A DNA stretch of 64,000 nucleotides from an uncultured Balneolaceae bacterium (GTDB lineage: Bacteria > Bacteroidota > Rhodothermia > Balneolales > Balneolaceae), in assembly GCA_937125285.1 (NCBI GenBank), contig CAKZLH010000165.1:37295-101294 (forward strand). The letters are read 5' to 3'. Below are positions 17,991-31,534 of the stretch, piece by piece. The notes beneath the pieces were generated by a model, which worked only from the letters and a program-made list of their open reading frames with translations, was not told the DNA's origin and ran no database searches. The first letter of the stretch is position 1, and every line of letters starts with the position of its first letter. Both the position numbers and the translations under genes were made by a program.

Positions 17991-18122
17991 TTATGACTGT
18001 TTGTTGTTTAAAACTTGGTACCCTAAATAACCTAATAAATGCGCTAAATTCCTTTTTATTTGTATGATAGTGACATGAAGTGACACTGTTGCTAGTTATA
18101 TTAAAGGTGCTATACTATTATA

Positions 18123-18139
18123 TTGTAGAATAACTACAA
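18123..18139. promoter_or_regulatory. palindromic operator candidate O1 (TTGTAG-N5-CTACAA)
   Basis: Perfect 6-bp arms, located between the divergent recombinase gene and the defence operon. Confidence 0.45.
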
Positions 18140-18148
18140 TAAATTAAA

Positions 18149-18179
18149 TTTGCGCTAAAGAAAAATATATTTATCTTTG
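18149..18179 (+). promoter_or_regulatory. candidate Bacteroidota-type promoter of the defence operon (-33 TTTG / -7 TATCTTTG)
   Basis: TTTG at 18149-18152 and TAnnTTTG at 18172-18179, 19 nt apart, 17 nt upstream of the ATG at 18196. Confidence 0.4.
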
Positions 18180-18193
18180 TAGAAATTCTACAA
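18177..18193. promoter_or_regulatory. palindromic operator candidate O2 (TTGTAG-N5-CTACAA)
   Basis: Same half-sites as O1, centre-to-centre distance 54 bp; overlaps the -7 box and ends 3 nt before the start codon. Confidence 0.45.
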
Positions 18194-18195
18194 TA

Positions 18196-18753
18196 ATGAT
18201 GAAATTAGGAAAAATATCAGATATAAGTTTTGGGTCAGTTACTAGAACTGGTTCAAAAGGGGAAATACCATGTCTTCAAGTTGCTAATATATCAACGGAT
18301 GGAGATTTGGATTTTGATAAGACTTATTATGTAGTAGGTAAGATGAAAGGAGATCATGTTTTACTTCCTTCAAACAGTATAGTATTACCGGCGAAGGGGC
18401 AAAAGTTTTCTTCTGCATTAATAACCGAAGAGCAGTCAAATACTTTTGTAGCGAGTTCATCACTATTTGTGATTCAAGTCAATACTCGTTCAATTATTCC
18501 TGAATATCTGCAATGGTACTTAAATCAGTCTAAAATTAAATGGCGGTTAGAATCACTGTCTACGGGTTCAAACATTTCCTCGTTATCAATAAAAGAGTTG
18601 AGGAATCTTAGAGTTGAGGTGCCTGAGTTAGATATTCAGAGAAAAATCGTTGAACTAAAGAAGATGCAGGAAAAGGAATTAGTTCTTATTCAAAGGCTTG
18701 GCCAAAAAAGAAAAAAATTAATCGAAGCAATAACGAAAGAGTTAATACAATGA
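18196..18753 (+). CDS. hsdS: type I R-M specificity subunit, half-size (single target-recognition domain)
   Basis: 185 aa with one TRD and one C-terminal conserved helix (RKIVELKKMQEKELVLIQRLGQKRKKLIEAI); its stop overlaps the hsdM start. Confidence 0.65.
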   Translation: MMKLGKISDISFGSVTRTGSKGEIPCLQVANISTDGDLDFDKTYYVVGKMKGDHVLLPSNSIVLPAKGQKFSSALITEEQSNTFVASSSLFVIQVNTRSIIPEYLQWYLNQSKIKWRLESLSTGSNISSLSIKELRNLRVEVPELDIQRKIVELKKMQEKELVLIQRLGQKRKKLIEAITKELIQ

Positions 18754-20240
18754 CAGAAGAAATTACCCAGGATAAAATCAACTCCGTAGCATGGAGTGCT
18801 TGCGATACATTTAGAGGTGTTGTTGATCCATCTGAATACAAGAACTACATACTTGTATTCTTGTTCATTAAATATCTATCTGATTTGAGAAAAGATCGCC
18901 TTACCGAGCTTAACGCTCAATATGATGGAGATGAGGTAAGAATTGATCGGGCTTTAAAGCGTGAGCGATTTGTATTGCCAAAGCACTGTACGTATGACCA
19001 CATCTATACAAAAAGAAATGAGGCGAATATCGGTGAAATTATTAACAAAGCACTCCATGATATTGAAGAGAATAACAAAGAGAAGTTGGAAGGCGTATTT
19101 CGGAATATTGATTTTAACTCCACTACAGCCCTTGGAGAAACAAAAGACCGTAATTCCCGCCTTAAAAGCTTAATTGAAGATTTTAGTGATCCAGTGTTGG
19201 ATTTCAGGCCTTCGAAAATTGGTAAGAAAGATGTTATTGGGAATACCTACGAGTATTTGATTCAGAATTTTGCTTCAGATGCAGGAAAGAAAGGAGGGGA
19301 GTTTTATACACCTTCCGAAGTGTCTGAGCTCATGGCGGAACTGTTGAAGCCACAGGAAAAAGAACGGTTGTACGATCCAACTTGTGGTTCCGGGTCATTA
19401 TTGATCAAACTAGCCAAACAGGTGGGGAGTCGTGATTATTCAGTATTTGGTCAGGAGAGCAACGGTAGTACCTGGGCATTATGCAAGATGAACATGTTCT
19501 TACACGACATTGATAATGCGCGGATCGAATGGGGCGATACTATTAAAAACCCAAAATTGTATATCGACGACAAACTCATGAAGTTTGACGTTGTGGCTGC
19601 AAATCCTCCGTTTTCCTTGAAAAAGTGGGGAGAAGCTGAAGCTGAGAATGATCGCTATAACAGGTTTTGGAGAGGAATTCCGCCGAAAACAAAAGGGGAT
19701 TACGGCTTCATTTCACATATGGTGGAAAGCCTTAACGAACATGGTAGGATGGTTGTAGTAGTTCCACATGGTGTACTTTTTAGAGGGAGTAGAGAAGCTA
19801 AGATCAGGGAGCAGTTTATAAAGGAAAACCTATTAGATGCTGTAATAGGCTTGCCCGAGCAATTATTCTTCGGGACTGGTATCCCGGCTGCTTTATTGGT
19901 TTTCAAAAAACGTCGTGAACGTGAAGATGTACTTTTTATCGATGCCAGTAAGGAATATCAGGATGGGAAAAAACAGAACAAACTGCGCGATCAAGACATT
20001 CAAAAAATTGTAAGCACGTATGAGGCTTTTGAGACGAAAGATAAGTACAGTTATGTTTCTACCATAGATGAAATAAAGGAGAACGAGTTTAATCTCAACA
20101 TCCCAAGGTATGTAGATACGTTTGAGGAAGAAGAAGAGATTGATATAGCTGAAGTACAGAAAGAGATTGAGAGCCTTGAGACAGAGCTTGCCGAAGTGAA
20201 AGGGAAGATGAATGAATACCTAAAGGAATTGGGGTTCTAA
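18750..20240 (+). CDS. hsdM: type I R-M N6-adenine DNA methyltransferase
   Basis: 496 aa; N-terminal HsdM domain, AdoMet motif DPTCGSGSLL, catalytic AANPPFS. Confidence 0.92.
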   Translation: MTEEITQDKINSVAWSACDTFRGVVDPSEYKNYILVFLFIKYLSDLRKDRLTELNAQYDGDEVRIDRALKRERFVLPKHCTYDHIYTKRNEANIGEIINKALHDIEENNKEKLEGVFRNIDFNSTTALGETKDRNSRLKSLIEDFSDPVLDFRPSKIGKKDVIGNTYEYLIQNFASDAGKKGGEFYTPSEVSELMAELLKPQEKERLYDPTCGSGSLLIKLAKQVGSRDYSVFGQESNGSTWALCKMNMFLHDIDNARIEWGDTIKNPKLYIDDKLMKFDVVAANPPFSLKKWGEAEAENDRYNRFWRGIPPKTKGDYGFISHMVESLNEHGRMVVVVPHGVLFRGSREAKIREQFIKENLLDAVIGLPEQLFFGTGIPAALLVFKKRREREDVLFIDASKEYQDGKKQNKLRDQDIQKIVSTYEAFETKDKYSYVSTIDEIKENEFNLNIPRYVDTFEEEEEIDIAEVQKEIESLETELAEVKGKMNEYLKELGF

Positions 20241-20241
20241 G

Positions 20242-21399
20242 ATGCCTGTAGAGAGAGCAAGAAAATCAGTTGGGTCAAAAATTTCAAGGCAACTCTGGAT
20301 GCAATCAGGAGGAAGGTGTGAATATTGTAACAAACTACTTTATAGGGATAGTCTTACCGAGCGCTTTATGAACAAGGCTTACATTTCACATATTATTGCC
20401 GCCAAAGAGGGATTTGTAAGGGGGGATTCAAAGTTGTCTGAAGAGCTGGAGGTGGCTTTTGAAAATCTAATGCTCTTATGTGATGAATGTCATAATAGAA
20501 TCGACAAAGCTGATCCTGCTCGACATACTGTTGAAGTGCTACAAAAAATTAAAAAGACTCATGAGGATCGGATTGAATTACTAACTGCGATAAAACCGAA
20601 GAATAAATCTCATATCCTAACCTTCATGGCAAAAATTGGTGAGCATCTTCCTGTAATCGACTTTCAGGATGCTGCAAATGCAATGCTTACCGATTATTAC
20701 CCCGCTTCCCATAGAATGGTTGAATTAGGTATTGAAAACTATCCTAAAGAGGATGATGAGGATGAATACTGGCAGGTACTTGAAAGTACTTTGACTGAGA
20801 ATTTCCAAACAAAAGTTTCCCCTTTGTTAAAATCAGGAGAAGTAAATCATTTTTCTGTTTTTGGGTTAGCCCCTCAACCATTATTGATAAGATTAGGGGT
20901 TCTTTTATCTGATATTAAACATGTTAGAGTTCATACTAATATAAGAGAGCCACAAACATGGAAACATCCCGAAGATGGAGACTCATTAGATTTTCAAATC
21001 GTTGAACCGGAGGATAAGACGGGGCTTCCAGTATTGAATATCTCTGTTACAGCGGATATTAATGAATCAAGGATTCATTCGGTTCTCGGAGAACATGTCT
21101 CCATTTGGAAGCTTACGGTTCCAATACCAGGGAAAGATCTTGTACGCTCTGATCGTACACTGCAGTATTTTAGAAAACGTGTGAGAGAGGTTTTTGAACA
21201 AATTAAACGAGCACATGGTGAGGATGAAACCTTGCGTGTATTCCCGGCAATGCCGAATTCAACAGCCATTGAGTTTGGAAGAGTTTGGCAACCTAAAGCT
21301 GAATTACCCATGATCATTTACGATCAGAATAGAAAACGGGACGGATTTATCAAGACGGTATCAATAATTAAACCCAAGAGGACTCAATATGTTAGCTGA
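20242..21399 (+). CDS. cap5: CBASS effector, HNH endonuclease fused to a SAVED domain (Cap5-like)
   Basis: 385 aa; HNH CEYCN...SHIIA...NLMLLCDECHNRID; C-terminal SAVED-like HFSVFGLAPQPLLIRLGVLL; starts 2 nt after the hsdM stop. Confidence 0.75.
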   Translation: MPVERARKSVGSKISRQLWMQSGGRCEYCNKLLYRDSLTERFMNKAYISHIIAAKEGFVRGDSKLSEELEVAFENLMLLCDECHNRIDKADPARHTVEVLQKIKKTHEDRIELLTAIKPKNKSHILTFMAKIGEHLPVIDFQDAANAMLTDYYPASHRMVELGIENYPKEDDEDEYWQVLESTLTENFQTKVSPLLKSGEVNHFSVFGLAPQPLLIRLGVLLSDIKHVRVHTNIREPQTWKHPEDGDSLDFQIVEPEDKTGLPVLNISVTADINESRIHSVLGEHVSIWKLTVPIPGKDLVRSDRTLQYFRKRVREVFEQIKRAHGEDETLRVFPAMPNSTAIEFGRVWQPKAELPMIIYDQNRKRDGFIKTVSIIKPKRTQYVS

Positions 21400-22909
21400 A
21401 ACCCAGGAAAAACAGAAATATGGTAAGGTACTTGATGAGATGGCTAAGTCTCTGGATCTTACCGAAAATCAATTCAAAGAGGCCGAAGACCGGTATAAAG
21501 CAGTAGGAGAGTATCTTTCAAGAGATGGATCCTCCTTGGCCAGTTTTAACCCTTCTATTGAACCACAAGGTTCTTTTTTATACGGAACAATGGTTCGGCC
21601 AATACTTGATGACGGGCACTACGATATCGATTTGATATGTATCCTTGAAAACCTCCCACTTACAGACACCCAGAAAGACCTAAAGAAAAAGGTTGGGAAA
21701 GAACTGAAAACAGGGAGATACGAACATTTATTGGATGAAGAAGGTCAGCGTTGCTGGACGTTGAATTACGCCGAAGGAACCAAGTTTCATATGGATATTC
21801 TTCCATCAACACCCGACCAATTTCGTAGGACTATTTATGAAGGTAGAGTAGATGAGTCATACTATAATTATGCGCTACGGATGACGGATAAAGAATCTGA
21901 AAGTTATGAATCATCTAATCGTATGGATTGGCCTAAAACTAATCCAAAAGGGTACTCAAAATGGTTTAAAGACCAAATGAGACCACAGTATGATAAACTG
22001 ATTAAGGAAGCAGCTTTGCAATTGAATGCCAGTGTTGAAGATGTGCCACATTGGAAAGTAAAAACTCCGCTACAACGAGCAATCCAGATTCTGAAACGTC
22101 ACCGGGATATTATGTTTGGAGGTGATGATGAAAAGCCAATATCTATCATTCTTACTACTCTTGCCGCTAAAGCATATCGAGGAGAAAGTAATGTTTTTGA
22201 TGCTTTGAAAACGATTCTCGGTGGTATGGAGCATTACATTGAGGAAGAATTCAATGGGTATAATCGTATCAAAGTGGTTAAGAACCCAGTGAATCCGGAA
22301 GAAAACTTTGCAGATAAATGGGAGCATAACCCCACCCTGAAAGATAACTTTTATCTCTGGTTAGCTAAGGCCAAAACAGATCTGATTGAAGTGTTTGATC
22401 TGGGTACCATCTATTCTGCAAAATCCCAACTCGAAACTTCGATGGGTAAGAGTTTAGTCGAAAATGCATACTCAAAAATTGGGGTACCAACACTATCACA
22501 GCCAAGAAAAGCCAGAAATCTACCAGTTGCCACCCATAAACAAGCTCCAAAATGGCCGGTAGTTAAAACGCACAGTGTCTCGGTTATCGGTAGATATAAT
22601 GAAAATGGAACATGGAAGTACATTTCGGAGGGTACGGTAATACCTAAGGGATGCAGTTTAATGTTCGCTGCAAATACCTCTGTGACTGGAAACTTTGAAG
22701 TGTTTTGGCAGATTGTGAACACTGGGTATGAAGCACAAATGGCTAAGTGCTTACGTGGGCAAATACTGCACTCAAAAACTGCGGGTAGAGGCGGGTTGAA
22801 ACAGAAAGAAGCAACCGCCTATAAAGGCACTCACTGGATTGAGTGCTTTATTGTACAGGGTGGAGTATGCGTGGCCAGAAGTGGTGAATTTATCGTGGAG
22901 ATTGGTTGA
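21389..22909 (+). CDS. CD-NTase/SMODS nucleotidyltransferase with a C-terminal extension (AGS-C-like)
   Basis: 506 aa; Pol-beta NTase motifs QGSFLYGTMVRP...DIDLICIL and KFHMDILPS; about 130 extra C-terminal residues; overlaps cap5 by 11 nt. Confidence 0.75.
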   Translation: MLAETQEKQKYGKVLDEMAKSLDLTENQFKEAEDRYKAVGEYLSRDGSSLASFNPSIEPQGSFLYGTMVRPILDDGHYDIDLICILENLPLTDTQKDLKKKVGKELKTGRYEHLLDEEGQRCWTLNYAEGTKFHMDILPSTPDQFRRTIYEGRVDESYYNYALRMTDKESESYESSNRMDWPKTNPKGYSKWFKDQMRPQYDKLIKEAALQLNASVEDVPHWKVKTPLQRAIQILKRHRDIMFGGDDEKPISIILTTLAAKAYRGESNVFDALKTILGGMEHYIEEEFNGYNRIKVVKNPVNPEENFADKWEHNPTLKDNFYLWLAKAKTDLIEVFDLGTIYSAKSQLETSMGKSLVENAYSKIGVPTLSQPRKARNLPVATHKQAPKWPVVKTHSVSVIGRYNENGTWKYISEGTVIPKGCSLMFAANTSVTGNFEVFWQIVNTGYEAQMAKCLRGQILHSKTAGRGGLKQKEATAYKGTHWIECFIVQGGVCVARSGEFIVEIG

Positions 22910-24168
22910 TGTCTAATACAGAAACAAATATGGACGGCTATAAGAAAACCAAACTTGGGTGGATTCCTGAAGAATGGGATTTCATTAAAATGGGTGAAAA
23001 AGTTGATTTATTGACTGGGTACCCATTTTCAAGTAATAGTTATTCTAATAAAGGGATTCGATTATTGCGTGGAGCAAATATTAAGAGAGGAGAGCTTAGT
23101 TGGGGAGACGATATTACAGTTTATTGGGATAATCATTTTGATAAACTGGATAAATTTGAACTCAGATTAGGAGATTTAGTAATTGCGATGGATGGTTCTC
23201 TTGTAGGTAGAAGTTTCGCTCAGGTAAACTCCAGTGATTTACCAAGTTATCTACTTCAACGAGTAGCAAGAATTCGGTCTGAAGAATTGGATATAAATTT
23301 CCTTAAGCACCTAATTAGTAGCATGCATTTTGTAAGATATTGTGACTCAGTCAAAACTGTTACGGCAATACCTCATATAAGCTCAAAGGATTTAAATAAT
23401 TTTAGTATACCTACTCCTTCATATACCGAACAAAAAAAGATTGCCGAAATCCTCTCCACCTGGGATGAAGCCATCCAGAAAACCGAAGCCCTCATTAAGA
23501 AGAAAGAGAGGCTGAAAAAGGGGCTGATGCAGCAGTTATTGACGGGTAAAAGGCGGTTGCCGGGTTTTAATGATAAATGGAGGGAAGTTAAGTTGGGTAA
23601 ACTCATAAGTACCTTTTCAGGCGGGACTCCAAGTCGACAAAAACAAGAGTATTATAATGGTAGTATACCTTGGATAAAGTCAGGTGAACTAAACCAGAGA
23701 AGAATACATACTACTGAAGAAAAGATTAGTTCTGAAGCATTAGCTAAATCTTCTGCAAAGCTAGTTCACAAAGGTGCCTTATTGCTAGCTATTTATGGAG
23801 CAACAGCAGGGGTGATTTCTGTAAATATGATGAGCAGTGCAGCAATTAATCAGGCAATTTTAGCTTTAATCCCACTCGATAATAAGATTGATATCGGTTT
23901 TCTTGAATTGTGGTTCTTATACAATAAAGACAAAATAATACACACATTTACACAGGGGGGGCAGCCTAACCTGAGTGCAAAAATAGTGAAGTCATTAAAA
24001 CTTAATTGTCCCTCAATTGAAGAACAGAAGCGAATTTCAAGACTCCTTTTTGCAATAGAGGATGACATACAAGGTCTAAAGGTATTATCGGATTGTATTA
24101 AATCACAGAAGAAAGGATTAATGCAGCAGCTATTAACTGGTAAGACAAGGGTAAAAGTAAACAAATAA
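22909..24168 (+). CDS. hsdS: type I R-M specificity subunit, full length (two TRDs)
   Basis: About 419 aa; the conserved repeat GLMQQLLTGK(R/T)R occurs twice; the ATG at 22909 overlaps the TGA of the CD-NTase gene (the track uses TTG at 22906). Confidence 0.9.
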   Translation: MSNTETNMDGYKKTKLGWIPEEWDFIKMGEKVDLLTGYPFSSNSYSNKGIRLLRGANIKRGELSWGDDITVYWDNHFDKLDKFELRLGDLVIAMDGSLVGRSFAQVNSSDLPSYLLQRVARIRSEELDINFLKHLISSMHFVRYCDSVKTVTAIPHISSKDLNNFSIPTPSYTEQKKIAEILSTWDEAIQKTEALIKKKERLKKGLMQQLLTGKRRLPGFNDKWREVKLGKLISTFSGGTPSRQKQEYYNGSIPWIKSGELNQRRIHTTEEKISSEALAKSSAKLVHKGALLLAIYGATAGVISVNMMSSAAINQAILALIPLDNKIDIGFLELWFLYNKDKIIHTFTQGGQPNLSAKIVKSLKLNCPSIEEQKRISRLLFAIEDDIQGLKVLSDCIKSQKKGLMQQLLTGKTRVKVNK

Positions 24169-24178
24169 AGAAAGACCT

Positions 24179-24463
24179 ATGACAAGTGAAGAGTTATATG
24201 AGATACTGAACAATTTTGGTGAACAAAACTTACACCGACTTGGCTTTGAAGAGAAGGATGGATTCTGGATGCATCCTAATTCTACTCGAAGATTTCAAGT
24301 AAGCGATAAAAGATTATATGTATATATCAATGAACTAAATGTTGGAAGGTTAAATGCAGCTTTTAATGATCCTGTCAAGCTGTATCAAACCTTTATCGAA
24401 ACGGAAATTCTTCCAACTGAAACTCACTTTCAGTTCTTAAGAGAACAGGGCTTGGAAGTGTGA
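24179..24463 (+). CDS. hypothetical protein
   Basis: 94-aa ORF on the operon strand; no family recognised. Confidence 0.4.
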   Translation: MTSEELYEILNNFGEQNLHRLGFEEKDGFWMHPNSTRRFQVSDKRLYVYINELNVGRLNAAFNDPVKLYQTFIETEILPTETHFQFLREQGLEV

Positions 24464-24496
24464 AAGTCTTTAATTCACATATAATCGGGTTTAAAA

Positions 24497-24991
24497 ATGG
24501 ATGAACTTAAAAATAGTATAATTAAAGAGGCATTTAGGATTGAAGAAGACACAAATCATAGTGCCAGATGCCATTTTAATGCAGCAGCTAGATGGGAAAG
24601 CGTACATTATAAAATAGGGTTGCCATCTGTTATTGCTGTTGCTTTATCAGGTGGAGCATTTATAGGGGAACAAACAGCAATTGGGATAACCTTGGCTGCT
24701 ATTTCAACAGGATTGACGACCACTTTGACATTTCTAAAGCCATCAGAAAAAGCAGAGACTCATAGTATTGCAGGAAACCAATATTTAAGTCTCAGAAATC
24801 AAACAAGGATATTTCGCGAGGTAGATCTTTTAAAATCTTTCGATGTGGACGAAGCAACAACTCAGATAAAAAAGTTGGCAATTGAAAGAGATGATTTAAA
24901 TCAAAATTCTCCATCATTTAGTAGGAAAGATTACGAGAAGGCTAAGAAGAGTATTGAAGGTGGTGAAACGACACATGGGGTAGATAGCTGA
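24497..24991 (+). CDS. SLATT-domain two-TM protein (predicted membrane effector)
   Basis: 164 aa; N-terminal helix with HSARCHFNAAARW, then two TM helices (LPSVIAVALSGGAF / ITLAAISTGLTTTLTF) and a helical tail, the SLATT architecture as recalled. Confidence 0.6.
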   Translation: MDELKNSIIKEAFRIEEDTNHSARCHFNAAARWESVHYKIGLPSVIAVALSGGAFIGEQTAIGITLAAISTGLTTTLTFLKPSEKAETHSIAGNQYLSLRNQTRIFREVDLLKSFDVDEATTQIKKLAIERDDLNQNSPSFSRKDYEKAKKSIEGGETTHGVDS

Positions 24992-25806
24992 TGACAGTGA
25001 ATGGCTATCTTACAAGTATAGCAAAGAAAGCTATAATTAGAGATCAAGAAAAAAAAAGTATTGAGACATCTATTGGTGCATTAAAAAACCGAGTTGAGCA
25101 GTATTTTGGTTCTAATGTTAGCAATCATTTTCAGTTTGGTTCATCTGTGAGAAAAACAATGCTACCTCGAAATTTGGATATTAAATCAGATGTAGATTAT
25201 ATGATTGTATTTAGGGACGATGGCTATCGTCCTCAGACCTATTTAAACCAAATTAGAAGCTTTGTTGAAACAAAGTATTCAAGATCTGAGATTAAACAAT
25301 CAAATCCATCGATCATACTTTTGTTAAGTCATATAAATTTTGAATTGGTTCCAGCATTATCAAGTTTGATGAGTGTTTGTGAATATCGTATTCCTGATAA
25401 ATCCTCATCTTATAATGATTGGATTAGTACATCACCACTTGTTCATGATACTAATCTAGCAAACTCAAACAAGGAGTATAATTATCAAATTAAACCTTTA
25501 ATTCGGATTCTAAAATATTGGAATGCAATCAATAAATATCCATTCAATTCGTATGAATTAGAATGTTTAATCTTAGATTATTTCAACGTGCACCCATTCC
25601 TTTTTGAATACTCTAGTTCTAAAACATTGGCAGATTACCTATTCGAATTTATTACAAATTTAAATTTAAGTTGGAATGATCCAGATTGGAAAAGAAATAA
25701 AATTACTCAGCTCAAAAATCATGTTTATAAAATCAAGGTTTTAATACAAAGAAACAATGAGTTAGGTGCTGTAACTGAGTTAAAAAAACTAATACCCCTT
25801 ACATAA
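24991..25806 (+). CDS. SMODS-family minimal nucleotidyltransferase
   Basis: 271 aa; FGSSVRKTMLPRNLDIKSDVDYMIVF (GS...DxD) and NFELVPA; the start overlaps the SLATT stop (TGATG). Confidence 0.65.
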   Translation: MTVNGYLTSIAKKAIIRDQEKKSIETSIGALKNRVEQYFGSNVSNHFQFGSSVRKTMLPRNLDIKSDVDYMIVFRDDGYRPQTYLNQIRSFVETKYSRSEIKQSNPSIILLLSHINFELVPALSSLMSVCEYRIPDKSSSYNDWISTSPLVHDTNLANSNKEYNYQIKPLIRILKYWNAINKYPFNSYELECLILDYFNVHPFLFEYSSSKTLADYLFEFITNLNLSWNDPDWKRNKITQLKNHVYKIKVLIQRNNELGAVTELKKLIPLT

Positions 25807-25816
25807 CTAATAAACA

Positions 25817-26308
25817 ATGGATTGGTATAAAATTATTGAGAGCGTGATACAAATTGGGATTACTGGAGTAGCCGCTTTAATTGTAACATGGTTTTATAGC
25901 AAAAAGCAGAGTGATTTAAGCCATGATGAGTTTCAGAGAGATCTATTTAGGGAGCTAAATCATCGTTATGATGCTCTTAATGATAATCTTCACGATATAT
26001 ATGAACTTCAAAAGAAATCTGAATCATCATTAAGTTTAAAGAAGCTTTCAATTAAGTCACCAGAATTACTAAAGTGCCTAAATGACTATCTAAATCTTTG
26101 TGCTGAGGAATATTTTTGGTACAAAAAAGGAAGGGTAGATGATGCTGTATGGAAATCGTGGAATATTGGTATGAATTGGTGGTATAGTAAATTGCAACCA
26201 CTTCAGGAGCTTTGGGATGAGGAGAAAGAAAATGGAAATTTTGAATCCTATTATTTGGAAGCTGGTGAAGACTTATTTGATAGTTCTACAAAAGTCTCCG
26301 TAAGATGA
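25817..26308 (+). CDS. hypothetical single-TM protein
   Basis: 163 aa; N-terminal TM (VIQIGITGVAALIVTWF) and a Trp-rich helical C-terminal part; its stop overlaps the hsdR start (ATGA). Confidence 0.45.
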   Translation: MDWYKIIESVIQIGITGVAALIVTWFYSKKQSDLSHDEFQRDLFRELNHRYDALNDNLHDIYELQKKSESSLSLKKLSIKSPELLKCLNDYLNLCAEEYFWYKKGRVDDAVWKSWNIGMNWWYSKLQPLQELWDEEKENGNFESYYLEAGEDLFDSSTKVSVR

Positions 26309-29300
26309 ATACTCCCTCATACCTAGAAGACCATTCCAGCCAAATTCCAGCTTTAATGCTTTTGCAAAAGATGGGTTTCTCATATTTGAGTCCATCGGAG
26401 GTGGATGAGCTTCGTGGTAGTAGCTCCCAGGTATTATTAAAACCAGTTCTGGATGAGTGCCTTCGCAATATAAATCATATCGATTTTCGCGGAAAAAGGT
26501 ATCCATTTTCTAATCACAATATTACCAGTGCCGTACAAAAGATAAGTGACCTACCACTGGTAGATGGGCTGATTAAAACCAATGAGAATCTATATCACAT
26601 TCTTACCTTAGGTAGCAGTTTCGAGGAAACTATAGAGGGGGATAAAAAGAGCTTTACACTAAAGTATGTCGATTGGGAGCATCCGGAGAATAACCAGTAT
26701 CATGTGGCTGAGGAGTTCAGTGTACAACGAGTGGGTAGCTACAAAGAATACCGACCTGACATTGTGCTGTTTGTAAATGGAATTCCACTCGTAGTCCTTG
26801 AGAGCAAACGCCCTGATCTGAAAGTAAAAGAAAAGGATCAGAACCCTGTCGAACAAGCAGTATCACAGCATTTACGAAATCAAAAGCATGACGGTATACC
26901 AAACTTGTATGTGTATTCCCAAATGCTATTGAGTCTGGCAGTAAACGAAAATAAATATGCGACTACGGGCACTCCTCAAAAGTTTTGGAGTACCTGGAAA
27001 GAGAAGTTTGACACGTTAAGTGAAGAAAAAGAATACGAGGATACCATACGTTCTCTTGTTAATCAAAAGCTGCAAGATTCAGACTTTGATAAACTATTCT
27101 CGGAACGCTTTAACTACGTTAAATCCTATTTCCAGGCTTTACAAGATCAAGAGCTTTCAATTACCGATCAGGATAAAATTCTTTACGGGTTATGTAGGCC
27201 GGAAAGATTATTACGATTTATAAAGCGATATACATTATATGATGCAGGTCTAAAAAAAGTAGCCCGATATCAACAGTTTAATGCTGTCGAAAAGACATTA
27301 GAACGAATTCGCCTTTTAGAATCGGGTAAAAGAACGGGCGGTGTAATATGGCACACTCAAGGCTCAGGGAAATCACTTACTATGGTGATGCTTGCAAAAG
27401 GGATTGCTTTGGATGGCAGCATCCCTGATGCACGCATCGTATTGGTTACTGATCGAGTGGATTTAGATGATCAGATCTATAAAACCTTTGACGATTGTGA
27501 TTTGGAACCGGTACAGGCTGCAACAGGCAATCATTTAATATCCTTACTCAGGGAAAAAAAGCGAGCCGTAATAACTACTATCATAAATAAGTTTGAAGCG
27601 GTGGTTAAAAAAAGCAAGGTTAAAGAGGACTCACCCAATATTTTTGTGTTGGTGGATGAAGGTCACCGAACCCAATACGGAACAGCCAATATCCGAATGC
27701 AGCAAACGTTCCCTAATGCGTGCTTTATTGCGTTTACTGGTACTCCTTTAATGAAGAAGGAGAAGAATACAGCCAGAAAATTTGGTGGTACAATTGATAC
27801 CTATACCATTAAAGAAGCCGTAGAAGACAAAGCTGTGGTTCCATTGTTATATGAAGGCAGACACATACCACAGCAAGTCAATAAGACTCCCATTGACACC
27901 TACTTTGAACGTATTTCTGTGCGCTTAAATGAAAAAGAAAAAGCCGATTTAAAAAAGAAGTTCAGTCGTTCTGAGCAGCTTAATGAAGCAGAGCAAAAAT
28001 TGATGACGATCTGCTATGATATTAGTGATCATTACTCTAAGACCTGGCAAGGGACGGGATTCAAAGGTCAATTAACGGTGCATTCCAAAACGGCGGCTAT
28101 CAAGTGTAAACAGTTTCTGGATGAATTTGGGAAAGTGACATCTGATGTGATAATATCTCCGCCAGACACCCGTGAAGGACATGAAGATATAGACGATGAT
28201 CACACAGATATTGTACAGAAATTCTGGAAAAAAATGATGGAGAGATTTGGCACTGAGAAGGAATACAACAAACAGTTGATATACCGTTTTAAAAGTGATG
28301 AAGCTCCGGAAATCATGATTGTGGTTGATAAGCTAATCACTGGATTTGATGCACCAAGGAATATTGTACTGTATATTGCACGAAGTTTAAAAGAGCACAA
28401 ACTTCTACAAGCAATTGCCAGAGTAAATCGTCTTCATGAAGGGAAAGATTTCGGTTACATCATCGACTACTATGGAATTTTAGGGGAGCTGGATGAAGCA
28501 TTAACTACCTATAGTGAATTGGAAGACTTCGATCAGCAGGAGCTTGAAGGAACCCTTTCAGATATACATGAAGAGATAGAGAAATTACCGGAGCGTCATT
28601 CTCATGTATGGGATATTTTTAAAGGGATGGATAGAAGTTTGGACAGCCAGAAGTATGAATTATTCTTGGATGATGAAGCATTAAGAGATGAGTTTTATGA
28701 TCGGGTTTCCATCTTTTCGAGGACGTTGAAATTGGCTCTTTCCACCTTTGATTTTGTTCAGGAAACAGATCCTAAGAAAGTTGCAGAGTATAAAGAAGAC
28801 GCAAAATTCTTTATGAGTCTTAGAGCATCTGTTAAAGCCAGGTATTCGGACGCTGTAGATTATCGTCAGTACGAAAAGCAGGTTCAGAAACTCATTGATA
28901 CTCATGTCACCTCAAGCGAAATAGTTAAGCTTACCGAACAAGTAAATATATTTGATCGGGAGAAATTTGAGGAAGAGCTGGCAAAAGTAGAAGGGGACGC
29001 GGCACGTGCTGATCGAATTGCATCTCGTACCCAAAAAACGATAAGCATGGTCATGGAAGAAGATCCTGCCTTGTATAAAAAGTTCTCTGAAATGTTGATG
29101 CAAACCATCAATGACTGGAAAGCTCGTAGACTATCGGATGCTCAATACCTGAATAAGGTGAAAGAGATCATGGAAAAAGTTCGGAGTAGATCTGATAGTG
29201 AGGTACCAGAAGAACTTGAAGGGAAAAAAGTGGCTCATGCCGTATATGGGGTAGTGAACGAAGTTCTAAAGGTAGAGGAAGAATCTGTTACATACGGTAC

Positions 29301-29514
29301 AAGCACACCTTCAATGGGTTTAAAAATTGATGAGATTATCCAAAAGCATTTAGTTGTTGACTGGCAACATAAAACTGATGTGAAAAATGCAATGCGACAG
29401 GATATTGATGACTACTTGTTTTCACTTAGAAATGAAGGTGTTGAGCTTACTATTGAGGAAATAGACACCATAATTGAGAAATCCATCGAACTAGCAATAC
29501 GGAATTATTCATGA
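26305..29514 (+). CDS. hsdR: type I restriction enzyme R subunit (helicase-nuclease)
   Basis: 1069 aa; N-terminal nuclease region (RPDIVLFVNGIPLVVLESK), Walker A HTQGSGKSLTM, DEAH-like VLVDEGHRTQ, motif VI QAIARVNR. Confidence 0.93.
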   Translation: MNTPSYLEDHSSQIPALMLLQKMGFSYLSPSEVDELRGSSSQVLLKPVLDECLRNINHIDFRGKRYPFSNHNITSAVQKISDLPLVDGLIKTNENLYHILTLGSSFEETIEGDKKSFTLKYVDWEHPENNQYHVAEEFSVQRVGSYKEYRPDIVLFVNGIPLVVLESKRPDLKVKEKDQNPVEQAVSQHLRNQKHDGIPNLYVYSQMLLSLAVNENKYATTGTPQKFWSTWKEKFDTLSEEKEYEDTIRSLVNQKLQDSDFDKLFSERFNYVKSYFQALQDQELSITDQDKILYGLCRPERLLRFIKRYTLYDAGLKKVARYQQFNAVEKTLERIRLLESGKRTGGVIWHTQGSGKSLTMVMLAKGIALDGSIPDARIVLVTDRVDLDDQIYKTFDDCDLEPVQAATGNHLISLLREKKRAVITTIINKFEAVVKKSKVKEDSPNIFVLVDEGHRTQYGTANIRMQQTFPNACFIAFTGTPLMKKEKNTARKFGGTIDTYTIKEAVEDKAVVPLLYEGRHIPQQVNKTPIDTYFERISVRLNEKEKADLKKKFSRSEQLNEAEQKLMTICYDISDHYSKTWQGTGFKGQLTVHSKTAAIKCKQFLDEFGKVTSDVIISPPDTREGHEDIDDDHTDIVQKFWKKMMERFGTEKEYNKQLIYRFKSDEAPEIMIVVDKLITGFDAPRNIVLYIARSLKEHKLLQAIARVNRLHEGKDFGYIIDYYGILGELDEALTTYSELEDFDQQELEGTLSDIHEEIEKLPERHSHVWDIFKGMDRSLDSQKYELFLDDEALRDEFYDRVSIFSRTLKLALSTFDFVQETDPKKVAEYKEDAKFFMSLRASVKARYSDAVDYRQYEKQVQKLIDTHVTSSEIVKLTEQVNIFDREKFEEELAKVEGDAARADRIASRTQKTISMVMEEDPALYKKFSEMLMQTINDWKARRLSDAQYLNKVKEIMEKVRSRSDSEVPEELEGKKVAHAVYGVVNEVLKVEEESVTYGTSTPSMGLKIDEIIQKHLVVDWQHKTDVKNAMRQDIDDYLFSLRNEGVELTIEEIDTIIEKSIELAIRNYS

Positions 29515-30209
29515 AAAGTATTACCTATGGTAATCATCAAATCGAATTTGAACTCAATTTTTCAAGCAGAAAAACGCTTGGTTTGACTGTGTATCCCGAT
29601 CAAACAGTGGTCGTTAATGCTCCATTAGGAACAGAGTATGAAAGCGTAGAAAAGAAAGTAAAGTCGAAAGCTCGATGGATTCTAAAACAACTTCGGCAAT
29701 TTGAGAAATATTTGCCGAATACAAAGAAAAAGGAATATGTATCCGGTGAAACCCATCTATATCTAGGTAGGCAATACATTCTAAAAATCACGTCTAATTC
29801 TGGGGCTTCTAGCCATGTAAAATTGAAAGGAAGGTATTTGAATGTGCAGGTAAATAATAAAAGAAGGGTAGAGGCTACTTTAAAAGAATGGTACAGAGCA
29901 AGAGCTAGTATTCATTTCCAGACTATTGTAGAAGATCTGCTTCCAGAATTTGAGAATCACGATCTTAAAGTGAAAGAATTGAAGATTCGTGAAATGAAAA
30001 AAAGATGGGGTAGTTGTACTACAGAAGGGGTTATTACCTTAAATAGTGAATTGATAAAAGCACCGAAACGATGTATTCAATATGTAATCCTGCACGAACT
30101 TTGTCACCTGATTTATCATAAACATGATGCTAATTTCTACCGACTTTTGAATTCAATGATGCCAAACTGGAAACGTTGGAAAGAAAAGCTGGAGATAACT
30201 TTGGCATAA
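29511..30209 (+). CDS. M48/YgjP-like (DUF45) zinc metallopeptidase
   Basis: 232 aa; HELCHL (HExxH) near the C-terminus; the start overlaps the hsdR stop. Confidence 0.75.
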   Translation: MKSITYGNHQIEFELNFSSRKTLGLTVYPDQTVVVNAPLGTEYESVEKKVKSKARWILKQLRQFEKYLPNTKKKEYVSGETHLYLGRQYILKITSNSGASSHVKLKGRYLNVQVNNKRRVEATLKEWYRARASIHFQTIVEDLLPEFENHDLKVKELKIREMKKRWGSCTTEGVITLNSELIKAPKRCIQYVILHELCHLIYHKHDANFYRLLNSMMPNWKRWKEKLEITLA

Positions 30210-30229
30210 CACTTTAAGCTGACTCACTC

Positions 30230-31534
30230 ATGTTAAAAATATTCAAAGGGGTAGAAAGATTACATGTAATTAAGGCCTCTGAAATTCTAAAGCAAAAGGA
30301 TATAGTAATAAGTCCCAGACAACAGTACTGGGTAAGAATGCCAGATGGCAATGAGTGGCCCTATAAAGAACTTGTAAGAGAATCGGTCTACCAAGCAACT
30401 AAAATTATACTAGGAGATGAATTTCAGAGCAATGAAACCAATAGATCGAAATTTGAGAGTCTATACGACCTTGAAATCGTAGATTATAAGAAGCTTCCAT
30501 CTGTTGAATACTTATGTGAAAGGCTTAAAAGTAATTTCAAGAATATTTGGAGATGTGCGGATTCTGCTAAATGGTATATCCTTAAAAACACAAACCTGTT
30601 TACGTTTGATTGGTTTGATTCTGAAGTAAACTACTTAGGTAAAAGAAAGGAGAAAATAGGAAAAGGTAAAATGTCTATATATCCGTGGGTAAATGAACTG
30701 AGGATAGGTGATCTTATTTTCGTAATGAGTAAAAATCATTATTTCGGGACAGCCATAGCTAGATCAGAGTATAATTGGAGAGGCCCATTATTAGACATTG
30801 GTGGGGGGCGCAAGAAACCCGCTATTAAAGTAGAATATTTACATAAGTTAGATCAGCCAATTCTTCATGAGTTGAAGACCCATAATAGGCCAACCACATT
30901 TGCTAACATAGAGCACTATAGTTTTGGGTTATACAATACTCTTAGTTTTTTGAAAGACAGATTGCCGGGTGTATATGAGTCATTGAATGTTGTTGTTCAG
31001 GAAGTTGAGTACCCATCAAAAGTGCCAAGTGAAGCACTGGAATATATTGGGCAATCTAATCCTCCATCGTCTATTATAAGTTTTATATCAGATTCTCCAA
31101 GTTTTAAGGCTAACGAAGTCGACTACGAGAAAGAACATAGAAGAAATAAAGAAAAAGGAGATTTTGGAGAACGATACTTCGAATCATTGATTGAAAAGAA
31201 CCCAGATTTAATCGAGTTAGGTAGTCCTATTGCGAATATAGAAAAACAGAAGGATGGGGTTGGATATGATTATATGGTGAACACAGAAGATGGCAACCTG
31301 TACTATATTGAAATCAAATCTACTACTAGTTCAGCAAGTACTCCATTTTATATGTCTCATAATGAGAGGTCTTTTATGAAACAAGAATGCGAGAATTATA
31401 GGCTGATTAGATTCTACGATCTAAAACAAAAAAGAAGAGAAGGGTCATTTTTTGTACTAACTGCTAATGAGTTAAAATCAGGAGAATTCGATTTCAAGCC
31501 TACTAATTTTGAGATTTCCAGAACATTAAGTTGA
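30230..31534 (+). CDS. DUF3883-type PD-(D/E)xK nuclease-fold protein with N-terminal putative reader domains
   Basis: 434 aa; C-terminal GDFGERYFE...GVGYDYMV...YYIEIKST...FYMSHNERSF...YRLIRFY matches the DUF3883 pattern as recalled; the N-terminal domains were not identified. Confidence 0.55.
   Translation: MLKIFKGVERLHVIKASEILKQKDIVISPRQQYWVRMPDGNEWPYKELVRESVYQATKIILGDEFQSNETNRSKFESLYDLEIVDYKKLPSVEYLCERLKSNFKNIWRCADSAKWYILKNTNLFTFDWFDSEVNYLGKRKEKIGKGKMSIYPWVNELRIGDLIFVMSKNHYFGTAIARSEYNWRGPLLDIGGGRKKPAIKVEYLHKLDQPILHELKTHNRPTTFANIEHYSFGLYNTLSFLKDRLPGVYESLNVVVQEVEYPSKVPSEALEYIGQSNPPSSIISFISDSPSFKANEVDYEKEHRRNKEKGDFGERYFESLIEKNPDLIELGSPIANIEKQKDGVGYDYMVNTEDGNLYYIEIKSTTSSASTPFYMSHNERSFMKQECENYRLIRFYDLKQKRREGSFFVLTANELKSGEFDFKPTNFEISRTLS

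What the first reader, a model, noticed from the sequence alone, without database searches (positions are those of the whole stretch)
24179..26308. Second signalling module: 94-aa protein + SLATT + SMODS + Trp-rich single-TM protein between hsdS and hsdR
Seen: four tightly packed ORFs. The second has the two-TM SLATT architecture. The third has a minimal GS/DxD nucleotidyltransferase core (FGSSVRKT...SDVDYMIVF). The first and fourth have no family I can recognise, though the fourth has an N-terminal TM helix. Established: SMODS-SLATT pairs were predicted computationally as nucleotide-activated membrane-disrupting suicide systems. Inference: the two extra conserved-looking partners may make this a four-component variant, with a sensor or antitoxin plus a second membrane protein. 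This is the least characterised defence candidate in the island.
Basis: partly seen in the sequence, partly recalled or inferred. Interest (0 to 1): 0.62.

Follow-up and report, generated by a model that had tools for sequence, protein, structure and literature searches.

The report
Two-gene CBASS inside restriction operon
The SLATT and SMODS genes form an ordinary two-gene CBASS anti-phage module sitting inside a type I restriction-modification operon; the two small flanking genes belong to the restriction operon's frame, not to CBASS, although the 163-aa membrane protein represents an undescribed family found almost only in such operons.

Summary
Four tightly packed + strand ORFs lie between hsdS and hsdR. 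ORF2 is a SLATT_4 two-TM effector. ORF3 is a 271-aa SMODS/CD-NTase with intact GS, DxD and E motifs. ORF1 (94 aa, "A") and ORF4 (163 aa, "D") match no Pfam, NCBIfam, PADLOC or PHROG family.

The four-component interpretation is not supported.
- The SLATT-SMODS pair occurs without A or D in Legionella, Saccharospirillum, a Chromatiaceae MAG and Mesorhizobium. In some of these it is flanked directly by hsdS and hsdR.
- In the closest sister operon (hsdR 91% identical), A and D are both kept but a HEPN-type Hypoth_Ymh gene replaces the pair. The DNA breakpoints of that swap fall inside A and inside D.
- D's divergence tracks hsdR and YgjP (r = 0.88 and 0.91), not the cyclase (r = 0.21).
- On a 97-member tree, D falls in a clade of 35, of which 33 are embedded in type I R-M operons and none is in an R-M-free context. 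These usually abut hsdS or hsdR. The cargo beside them varies: GmrSD pairs, nucleases, CBASS, HEPN or nothing.
- A occurs only in Balneolaceae and tracks a DUF2188 gene.

Verdict: a known kind of system (type I CBASS embedded in type I R-M). The by-product is a new R-M-dedicated membrane-protein clade whose function is unknown; I suggest a guardian or tether role.

The parts
24497..24991 (+). B: SLATT_4 two-TM effector (164 aa), the predicted membrane-disrupting effector of the CBASS pair
   Evidence: NF033632 1.3e-37, PF18186 1.4e-07, PADLOC 2TM effector PDLC00712 2.1e-59. Two hydrophobic segments at about 39-57 and 60-80. Adjacent to the cyclase in 18 of 25 related genome loci.
24991..25806 (+). 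C: minimal SMODS/CD-NTase cyclase (271 aa), the signal synthase of the CBASS pair
   Evidence: PF18144 4.5e-32, PADLOC cyclase PDLC00769 2.8e-95. Aligns to solved CD-NTases 9sa4 and 6p8u with GS, DxD and third-acid positions matched. G50-S51, D67-V-D69 and E118 are conserved in 17 of 18 homologues; L020 has K at the third-acid position. Start codon overlaps the stop of B by 1 nt.
24179..24463 (+). A: 94-aa acidic soluble alpha/beta protein of unknown function. It is a Balneolaceae-specific gene of the R-M operon frame, not a CBASS component.
   Evidence: No family hit. AF2 pLDDT 94 with no PDB fold match. Ten homologues, all in type I R-M operons of Gracilimonas/Balneola. It precedes SLATT-SMODS in 4 operon types and Hypoth_Ymh in 3. 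Its identity tracks DUF2188 (r=0.95), not hsdR (r=0.25).
25817..26308 (+). D: 163-aa single-pass membrane protein with a conserved cytosolic helical domain (N93, C95, E97, E98, W112, W115, G118, Y145, Y146). It belongs to a clade embedded in type I R-M operons and is translationally coupled to hsdR.
   Evidence: TM at residues 6-24. AF2 pLDDT 86, all-alpha, with no PDB or BFVD fold match. Family of 1374 clusters with no Pfam or PADLOC model. In the clade of 35, 33 are R-M-embedded. Members abut hsdS or hsdR. Identity tracks hsdR (0.88) and YgjP (0.91).
22906..24168 (+). hsdS (full-length specificity subunit), the upstream border of the slot
   Evidence: PF01420 2.2e-36; PADLOC Specificity_I 9e-85.
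26305..29514 (+). hsdR (restriction subunit), the downstream border of the slot; its ATG overlaps the stop of D
   Evidence: 91% identical to the hsdR of L026/L039/L040, which carry HSDR_N/ResIII/T1R_D3 domains.
29511..30209 (+). YgjP-like metallopeptidase coupled to hsdR; co-inherited with D and hsdR
   Evidence: PF01863 4e-59; identity correlation with hsdR 0.99 and with D 0.91.
20242..22909 (+). First, separate CBASS in the hsdM-hsdS slot: SAVED-HNH effector plus CD-NTase with AGS-C domain
   Evidence: PF18145 2.4e-46; PADLOC endonuclease effector 2e-142; cyclase PDLC00770 1.7e-173; AGS_C 3.9e-30.

Best explanation
Genes B (SLATT_4) and C (SMODS/CD-NTase) are a self-contained two-gene type I CBASS cassette inserted in the hsdS-hsdR slot of a type I restriction-modification operon. 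The operon is carried on a mobile island of a Balneolaceae bacterium. The inferred mechanism comes from family knowledge and was not shown here. On phage infection the cyclase makes a cyclic di- or oligonucleotide, this activates the two-TM SLATT protein, and SLATT permeabilises the inner membrane and aborts the infection. Genes A and D are not CBASS parts. They belong to the operon frame into which alternative toxic cassettes (SLATT-SMODS, or a HEPN-type Hypoth_Ymh gene) are swapped by recombination whose breakpoints lie inside A and D. D belongs to a distinct one-TM clade of a large uncharacterised membrane-protein family. That clade is found essentially only inside type I R-M operons, abutting hsdS or hsdR and often translationally coupled to them. 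My favoured guess (about 40%, inference only) is that D is a PrrC-style 'R-M guardian': a latent membrane-acting abortive-infection effector held in check by the Hsd complex. The next guess (about 25%) is that D tethers or regulates HsdR at the membrane. A is a small acidic soluble protein restricted to Balneolaceae that travels with a DUF2188 gene; its role is unknown.
For: Pair identity:
- Profile hits for B and C, conserved catalytic motifs, and no Cap2/Cap3/HORMA/TRIP13-type genes in the operon.
- Pair autonomy: an adjacent SLATT gene in 18 of 25 cyclase loci, A in 1 and D in 2. In L004, L006 and L007 the order is hsdS-B-C-hsdR with no room for extra genes. Mesorhizobium loci carry the pair with no R-M gene within 6 kb.
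- Experimental precedent: CD-NTase+SLATT6 type I CBASS operons give >=10^4-fold defence (bioRxiv 10.1101/2023.05.21.541620).

A and D independence:
- L026/L039/L040 (hsdR 91%, hsdM 92-95% identical to the window) have DUF2188-A-Ymh-D in place of A-B-C-D.
- blastn of the window against L040 is colinear at 82-87% identity, except from 24301 (inside A) to 25883 (inside D).
- L001 versus L002: B 89% and C 88% identical, but D 45% and hsdR 47%. Correlations: D-hsdR 0.88, D-YgjP 0.91, D-C 0.21.

D clade:
- 35-member clade (SH-aLRT 96) with 33 R-M-embedded and 0 in an R-M-free context; label clustering was matched in 0 of 500 shuffles.
- D lies directly after hsdS in 15, directly before hsdR in 9, and directly after hsdR in 3.
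- The cargo beside D varies: GmrSD pairs, REase-ARP, a NucS-like nuclease, CBASS, HEPN, or none.
- Of 4 more distant genome hits (23-35% identity), the 3 closer ones (28-35%) lie within 7 kb of an hsdR.

Embedding of defence genes in type I R-M operons, and PrrC as an R-M guardian, are established (bioRxiv 10.1101/2024.01.29.577857; PMC12707154; PMC11411939).
Against: The signal molecule and the activation trigger of this cyclase subfamily are unknown. SLATT_4 effectors, unlike SLATT_6, have not to my knowledge been tested. A and D bracket the toxic cassette in every Balneolaceae operon that has A (8 loci, 7 operon types), so a regulatory influence on whichever effector lies between them cannot be excluded. 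The D-hsdR co-divergence may reflect simple linkage rather than interaction. The guardian and tether ideas for D have no direct support: there is no fold match, no catalytic motif was recognised, and no complex prediction was possible. My R-M detection in metagenome loci used home-made HMMs, so some 'no R-M' calls outside the clade may be false negatives.
Confidence: 0.8

Rival explanations
1. Four-component SMODS-SLATT system: A is a sensor or antitoxin and D a second membrane effector, and both are needed together with B and C.
For: A-B-C-D occur in that order in five operon types: the window, L002, L032, L037, and L001 (which lacks A). The genes are tightly packed.
Against: All of these operons are from one family (Balneolaceae). 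Outside it the pair never has A or D. A and D persist when Hypoth_Ymh replaces the pair. D's phylogeny follows hsdR, not the cyclase. D occurs with GmrSD pairs or alone in R-M operons.
Confidence: 0.04
2. Panoptes/PanDA-like inverted signalling. The minimal cyclase C constitutively makes a nucleotide that keeps SLATT B closed. Phage sponges or nucleases directed against the neighbouring SAVED-HNH CBASS deplete that nucleotide and release B. The second module would then guard the first.
For: C is unusually small (271 aa, no regulatory extension). In the window it lies 1.3 kb downstream of a canonical CBASS in the same operon. Panoptes and PanDA are minimal-cyclase plus 2TM-effector pairs, and about half of them lie next to CBASS operons (PMC12657218, PMC13640721).
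Against: The cyclase is a SMODS/CD-NTase, not mCpol or DAC. The effector is SLATT_4, not S-2TM-beta. The pair occurs with no hsdM-hsdS insert, and so no CBASS there, in L001, L037 and L004, and with no R-M gene within 6 kb in Mesorhizobium; a CBASS elsewhere in those loci was not searched for directly. CD-NTase+SLATT operons behave as conventional type I CBASS against many phages.
Confidence: 0.1
3. A-X-D is a three-part module with a swappable toxic effector X (SLATT-SMODS or HEPN Ymh). A and D would be common regulators, for example an antitoxin-like brake and a membrane sensor, for whichever effector sits between them.
For: In all 8 A-containing loci, A immediately precedes X and D immediately follows it. 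Both kinds of X are abortive-infection-type toxic effectors. The swap breakpoints lie inside A and D.
Against: D occurs without A (L001, L028, L030, L034 and more than 20 metagenomic operons) and without an X between it and hsdS. L030 has an unrelated 100-aa gene in A's place. One protein regulating two unrelated effector folds is unparsimonious. Both X types work or occur alone elsewhere.
Confidence: 0.08

Closest known systems
Type I CBASS with a transmembrane SLATT effector (e.g. EcCdnF04-SLATT6, EcCdnF05-SLATT6; bioRxiv 10.1101/2023.05.21.541620). SMODS-SLATT pairs were first predicted by Burroughs et al. 2015 (from my own knowledge).
   Same: A two-gene operon of a CD-NTase/SMODS cyclase with intact GS/DxD/acid motifs plus a two-TM SLATT protein, with no Cap2/Cap3/HORMA ancillary genes.
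   Different: The effector is SLATT family 4 rather than 6. The cyclase is very short (271 aa) and below NCBIfam's equivalog cut-offs (101 bits against 200). The effector gene comes first. The pair is embedded inside a type I R-M operon. The product and trigger are unknown.
Defence genes embedded in type I R-M operons: PrrC in EcoprrI, TgvAB in V. cholerae VPI-2, and the 'guilt-by-embedding' PDC candidates (PMC12707154; PMC11411939; bioRxiv 10.1101/2024.01.29.577857)
   Same: Cargo lies between hsdS and hsdR on the same strand and is co-transcribed. D, like PrrC, belongs to a clade found almost exclusively inside type I R-M operons.
   Different: D has no ABC-ATPase or anticodon-nuclease domain, no GmrSD domain, and hits none of PADLOC's PDC/HEC models. 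It is a 150-170-aa single-pass membrane protein.
Panoptes (OptS/OptE) and PanDA (PanS/PanE) decoy-nucleotide systems (PMC12657218; PMC13640721)
   Same: A minimal nucleotide cyclase plus a small two-TM effector, sitting next to a canonical CBASS.
   Different: A different cyclase fold family (SMODS rather than mCpol or DAC) and a different effector family (SLATT_4 rather than S-2TM-beta). Adjacency to CBASS is not conserved for this pair.

Membership tests
Type I CBASS | CD-NTase/SMODS cyclase with catalytic GS ... [D/E]xD ... [D/E] residues | tested here: met
   PF18144 4.5e-32; PADLOC PDLC00769 2.8e-95. G50-S51, D67/D69 and E118 align with the catalytic positions of solved CD-NTases and are conserved in 17 of 18 homologues; L020 has K at the third-acid position. 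The score is below NCBIfam's equivalog cut-off, so this is a divergent subfamily.
Type I CBASS | One adjacent effector (Cap) gene in the same operon | tested here: met
   SLATT_4 gene overlapping the cyclase start by 1 nt; PADLOC 2TM effector 2.1e-59; adjacency conserved in 18 of 25 loci.
Type I CBASS | No ancillary Cap2/Cap3 (type II), HORMA/TRIP13 (type III) or OGG/TGT (type IV) genes | tested here: met
   A and D hit none of these. The only hint, D against the PADLOC E2 model at E=0.011 (13 bits, over the TM/stalk helix), is noise, and D's model is all-alpha. In L004 and L006 the pair has no extra genes at all.
Type I CBASS | Cyclic-nucleotide synthesis on infection and effector-dependent abortive defence | not testable with these tools
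   Needs biochemistry and plaque assays. Precedent exists only for CD-NTase+SLATT6 operons.
SLATT effector family | Two adjacent TM helices flanked by conserved helices; match to a SLATT profile | tested here: met
   NF033632 129 bits (cut-off 55); PF18186 31.9 bits (cut-off 27). Hydrophobic hairpin at about residues 39-80. Conserved TFLKP and LNQxSP motifs.
   A in 1 and D in 2 of 25 cyclase loci. A and D are retained where Ymh replaces the pair. D tracks hsdR, not C.
Panoptes / PanDA | mCpol or minimal DAC synthase with an S-2TM-beta (Cap15/OptE-like) effector | tested here: not met
   The synthase is SMODS and the effector is SLATT_4. The working principle (constitutive repressing signal) could not be tested.
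PrrC-type R-M guardian | Gene found (almost) exclusively embedded in type I R-M operons | tested here: met
   For D: of the 35-member clade, 33 are R-M-embedded and none is in an R-M-free context; members abut hsdS or hsdR.
PrrC-type R-M guardian | ABC-ATPase N-domain plus anticodon-nuclease C-domain; activated when the R-M enzyme is inhibited | tested here: not met
   D has no such domains, so it is not a PrrC family member. Activation by R-M inhibition is untestable here.
SLATT (for protein D) | Profile similarity of D to SLATT | tested here: not met
   hhalign of the D family against the SLATT_4 family gives probability 1%. Only 1 of 50 members gave a weak SLATT_6 hit, at E=0.0056.

The most novel reading that the evidence does not exclude
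Protein D defines a new accessory class dedicated to type I R-M. It is a one-TM membrane protein with a conserved cytosolic NLCAEE...W..W..G...YY domain, it is translationally coupled to hsdS or hsdR, and it physically works with the Hsd complex. It could act as a PrrC-like guardian that kills through the membrane when restriction is blocked, or as a tether that places or regulates HsdR at the membrane where phage DNA enters. It would also mark the point at which other defence cassettes (GmrSD pairs, CBASS, HEPN) are exchanged.
Probability: 0.35. Interest if true: 0.65.

Novelty: new member of a known kind. Interest (0 to 1): 0.36.

Why it matters
For the finding as posed, the answer removes a false lead. 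This is not a new four-part signalling system but a standard two-gene CBASS, one more example of defence cassettes nested in type I R-M operons.

Two by-products have some value:
- The window and its sister operon (L040) form a natural swap experiment. The same R-M frame carries either SLATT-SMODS or a HEPN gene, with breakpoints inside the flanking genes A and D. This shows how nested cassettes are exchanged.
- D exposes a sizeable protein family (1374 clusters at 50% identity) that is not in Pfam or PADLOC. Its one-TM clade is as tightly tied to type I R-M as PrrC is. If D modulates or guards restriction, it would add a membrane component to a system regarded as purely cytosolic. It would also be a cheap, testable single-gene candidate.

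Tried and rejected
- Fold searches found nothing. D against PDB gave a best E of 1.8. D against BFVD gave a best E of 0.85. A against PDB gave a best E of 0.57. The folds therefore give no functional hint.
- D as a divergent SLATT: hhalign probability 1%.
- D as a Cap2/E2-like protein: a 13-bit PADLOC hit over the TM helix, rejected.
- D as HEPN: no conserved Rx4-6H motif in the alignment.
- Pfam and PADLOC scans of 50 diverse D-family members gave only scattered single weak hits.
- The word-indexed homologue search for A alone found only the query itself. Re-seeding with a 4-sequence alignment found 10.
- D is absent from PLSDB plasmids.
- The promoter and terminator scan of the operon found no more sites than shuffled sequence, so it gives no evidence for or against internal promoters.
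- I could not assign the cyclase to a lettered CD-NTase clade with the libraries at hand.
Full report
OBSERVATION

The four + strand ORFs are real and tightly packed:
- A, 24179-24463 (94 aa), starts 10 nt after the hsdS stop.
- B, 24497-24991 (164 aa), starts 33 nt after A.
- C, 24991-25806 (271 aa), overlaps B by one base (TGATG).
- D, 25817-26308 (163 aa), starts 10 nt after C. Its stop overlaps the hsdR start (ATGA).

No intrinsic terminator is predicted on the + strand between 21573 and 32000, and promoter-like sites are no more frequent than in shuffled sequence. This fits one long operon: hsdS-half, hsdM, [SAVED-HNH + CD-NTase/AGS-C], hsdS, [A, B, C, D], hsdR, YgjP-like peptidase, NOV_C protein.

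WHAT B AND C ARE

B matches SLATT_4 (NCBIfam NF033632, 129 bits against a cut-off of 55; Pfam PF18186, 31.9 against 27). It also matches a PADLOC CBASS '2TM effector' model at 2.1e-59. It has the expected hydrophobic hairpin at about residues 39-80.

C matches SMODS (4.5e-32) and a PADLOC CBASS cyclase model over its full length (2.8e-95). It aligns to solved CD-NTases (9sa4, 6p8u), with its G50-S51, D67-x-D69 and E118 on the catalytic positions. The GS and DxD motifs are invariant across 18 homologues. The third acid is E or D in 17 of them and K in one, L020.

None of the genes beside the pair resembles Cap2, Cap3, HORMA, TRIP13 or other ancillary CBASS genes. By the usual definition, one synthase plus one Cap gene (PMC10419184), this is a type I CBASS. 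CD-NTase+SLATT operons of this architecture have been shown to give >=10^4-fold protection (bioRxiv 10.1101/2023.05.21.541620). Those used SLATT_6 effectors rather than SLATT_4.

ARE A AND D PART OF IT? NO.

(i) The pair stands alone elsewhere. A scan of one genome per species found 25 loci with a relative of C.
- tblastn finds a SLATT gene directly upstream in 18 of them, A in one and D in two; both D loci are Gracilimonas.
- In a Saccharospirillum MAG and two Legionella species the order is hsdS-B-C-hsdR-YgjP. The intergenic gaps are too short for any further gene.
- In nine Mesorhizobium/Rhizobium loci the pair has no R-M gene within 6 kb.

(ii) A and D persist without the pair.
- The nearest operons are L026/L027, L039 and L040, with hsdM 92-95%, hsdR 91% and YgjP 86-87% identical to the window. 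They read hsdM-SAVED-CD-NTase-hsdS-DUF2188-A'-Hypoth_Ymh-D'-hsdR-YgjP.
- L040 also shares the NOV_C gene and a neighbouring serine recombinase, so it is the same island type.
- At DNA level the window and L040 are colinear at 82-87% identity from 18118 to 22977 and from 25883 to 31519. Homology ends at 24301, which is 123 nt into A. It resumes at 25883, which is 67 nt into D.
- The SLATT-SMODS/Ymh replacement therefore has its breakpoints inside A and D. These two genes act as the flanks of a cassette-exchange site, not as parts of the cassette.

(iii) Divergence patterns across 12 operons.
- D's pairwise identity correlates with that of hsdR (Pearson 0.88, 66 pairs) and YgjP (0.91). It does not correlate with C (0.21, 10 pairs).
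- L001 and L002 carry nearly the same cassette (B 89%, C 88%) in frames whose D and hsdR are only 45% and 47% identical.
- B and C co-vary with each other (0.97).
- A co-varies with the small DUF2188 gene that usually precedes it (0.95), not with hsdR (0.25).
- A copies that are 77-80% identical sit before SLATT-SMODS (L002, L032) or before Ymh (L041).

WHAT D IS

D has one strong N-terminal TM helix at residues 6-24, followed by Lys-Lys, so the C-terminal domain is probably cytosolic. Its confident all-alpha model (pLDDT 86) is a long TM-plus-stalk helix followed by a helical bundle. No fold match was found in PDB or BFVD, and D is unrelated to SLATT.

A full HMM search shows a large unnamed family: 1374 clusters at 50% identity with E<=1e-3. 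Invariant positions are N93, E97, W112, W115 and G118; near-invariant positions are C95, E98, Y145 and Y146. Fifty diverse members hit no consistent Pfam or PADLOC model.

A metagenome scan returned 80 further loci. On a tree of 97 members, the window's D lies in a clade of 35 (SH-aLRT 96). Of these, 33 sit in type I R-M operons on the same strand, 2 are on contigs too short to tell, and none has an R-M-free context. The clustering of the label was matched in 0 of 500 shuffles.

Within the clade:
- D lies within 80 nt downstream of hsdS in 15 loci (often with an ATGA overlap), within 80 nt upstream of hsdR in 9, and within 80 nt downstream of hsdR in 3.
- 31 of 35 have one TM helix, against two TM helices in most members outside the clade.
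- The other embedded cargo varies: TgvAB-like GmrSD pairs (L028, L051, L053, L071), REase-ARP plus GmrSD (L056), a NucS-like nuclease (L063), SLATT-SMODS, Ymh, or nothing between D and a core gene (L034 and L059: hsdR-D-YgjP).

More distant members in complete genomes (23-35% identity): the three closer ones (28-35%) lie within 7 kb of an hsdR, next to a reverse transcriptase, AbiE or an AAA_21 ATPase. The most distant, at 23%, does not.

D is rare, in 5 of 401 genomes of the phylum, and absent from PLSDB plasmids.

D is therefore a gene of the type I R-M operon frame. In this it is comparable to PrrC, which is found almost exclusively embedded in type I R-M (bioRxiv 10.1101/2024.01.29.577857; PMC12707154). 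It shares no domain with PrrC.

WHAT A IS

A is a small acidic (pI 4.95) soluble alpha/beta protein with a very confident model (pLDDT 94) and no PDB fold match. Only ten homologues were found, all in Gracilimonas/Balneola type I R-M operons. It follows hsdS, DUF2188 or Shedu, and it always precedes the toxic cassette. Its function is unknown.

MECHANISM

Shown here: gene identities, catalytic motif integrity, operon architecture, the autonomy of the pair, and the linkage of D to type I R-M.

Inferred from family knowledge: C senses infection and makes a cyclic nucleotide, B is opened by it and collapses the membrane, and the cell dies before phage release.

Guesses for D:
- About 40%: a latent membrane-acting abortive-infection effector guarded by the Hsd complex.
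- About 25%: a membrane tether or regulator of HsdR.
- The remainder: other roles.

RIVALS
- The four-component idea is effectively refuted.
- A Panoptes/PanDA-like inverted logic (PMC12657218, PMC13640721) is suggested by the small cyclase and the neighbouring CBASS. However, the domain families differ, and the neighbouring CBASS is not a conserved feature of the pair's loci.
- An 'A-X-D' module with a swappable effector fits the Balneolaceae operons. It conflicts with the many operons that have D but neither A nor X.

NOVELTY AND SCORE

The pair is a new member of a known kind: a type I CBASS nested in a type I R-M operon, a situation already described in general terms. The modest extra interest lies in the R-M-dedicated D clade and the naturally swapped cassettes.

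LIMITS

R-M detection in metagenome loci relied on HMMs that I built from 8-13 sequences per family. The 80 metagenome loci are the best of at least 492 matches and are therefore biased towards relatives of the window's D.

Noticed in passing
window 24301-25883 versus L040 7123-8181: Natural cassette swap. In an otherwise 82-87% identical island (Balneola sp. MAG), DUF2188 plus Hypoth_Ymh (a HEPN-type RNIFSH motif, read by eye) stand where the window has SLATT-SMODS. The homology breakpoints lie inside genes A and D.
   Followed up: yes
L051, L053, L061, L071, L028, L066, L073 (metagenome/Logan loci): Recurrent architecture hsdM-hsdS-D-[GmrSD_N protein]-[GmrSD protein]-hsdR. This is a TgvAB-like two-gene type IV restriction pair preceded by a D-family gene whose start overlaps the hsdS stop. 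The published V. cholerae TgvAB operon is described with only two embedded genes. Pfam confirmed the GmrSD pair for L028, L051 and L053 and the first gene for L071; the others were inferred from ORF sizes.
   Followed up: partly
L006, L007 (Legionella drozanskii, L. santicrucis), L004, L005: The same SLATT_4-SMODS pair (cyclase 44-47% identical) sits between hsdS and hsdR-YgjP in Gammaproteobacteria. This cyclase subfamily therefore recurs in this slot across phyla.
   Followed up: partly
L002, L026, L032, L039-L041 (gene just upstream of A): A 78-aa DUF2188 gene precedes A in most operons and co-diverges with it (r=0.95). It is missing in the window, where A starts 10 nt after hsdS, and in L037, where a Shedu (SduA) gene takes its place. 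In L032 it is fused in frame to an AAA-ATPase N-terminal fragment.
   Followed up: partly
L001 4403-5498: Between hsdS and the SLATT gene of Gracilimonas sp. BCB1 lie a 301-aa and a 98-aa ORF in different frames (N-terminus ...LILGNGFS...). This is possibly one frameshifted defence-type gene occupying A's position. I did not run a profile search on it.
   Followed up: no
L034/L035 upstream of hsdR; L030/L031 slot between hsdM and hsdS: Other cargo in related R-M frames: a PycTM (Pycsar-type) effector gene before hsdR; and SAVED + CD-NTase + E2-CBASS + Fic between hsdM and hsdS. The hsdM-hsdS slot is as variable as the hsdS-hsdR slot.
   Followed up: no
phage record CP067352.1 6532-7242: The only phage-record homologue of the cyclase (47.6% identity over 89% of its length) is in Clostridioides phage ES-S-0173-01. 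PHROG phrog_23526 matches the cyclase at 8e-61 and phrog_36926 matches the SLATT at 4e-10, so some phages or prophages carry such pairs.
   Followed up: partly
D family outside the R-M clade (e.g. L029, L081, L114, L123): Most non-R-M members have two N-terminal TM helices instead of one and lie in contexts I did not annotate. L029 (Chitinophaga) sits between a glycoside hydrolase and an alcohol dehydrogenase, so the wider family may not be defence-specific.
   Followed up: partly
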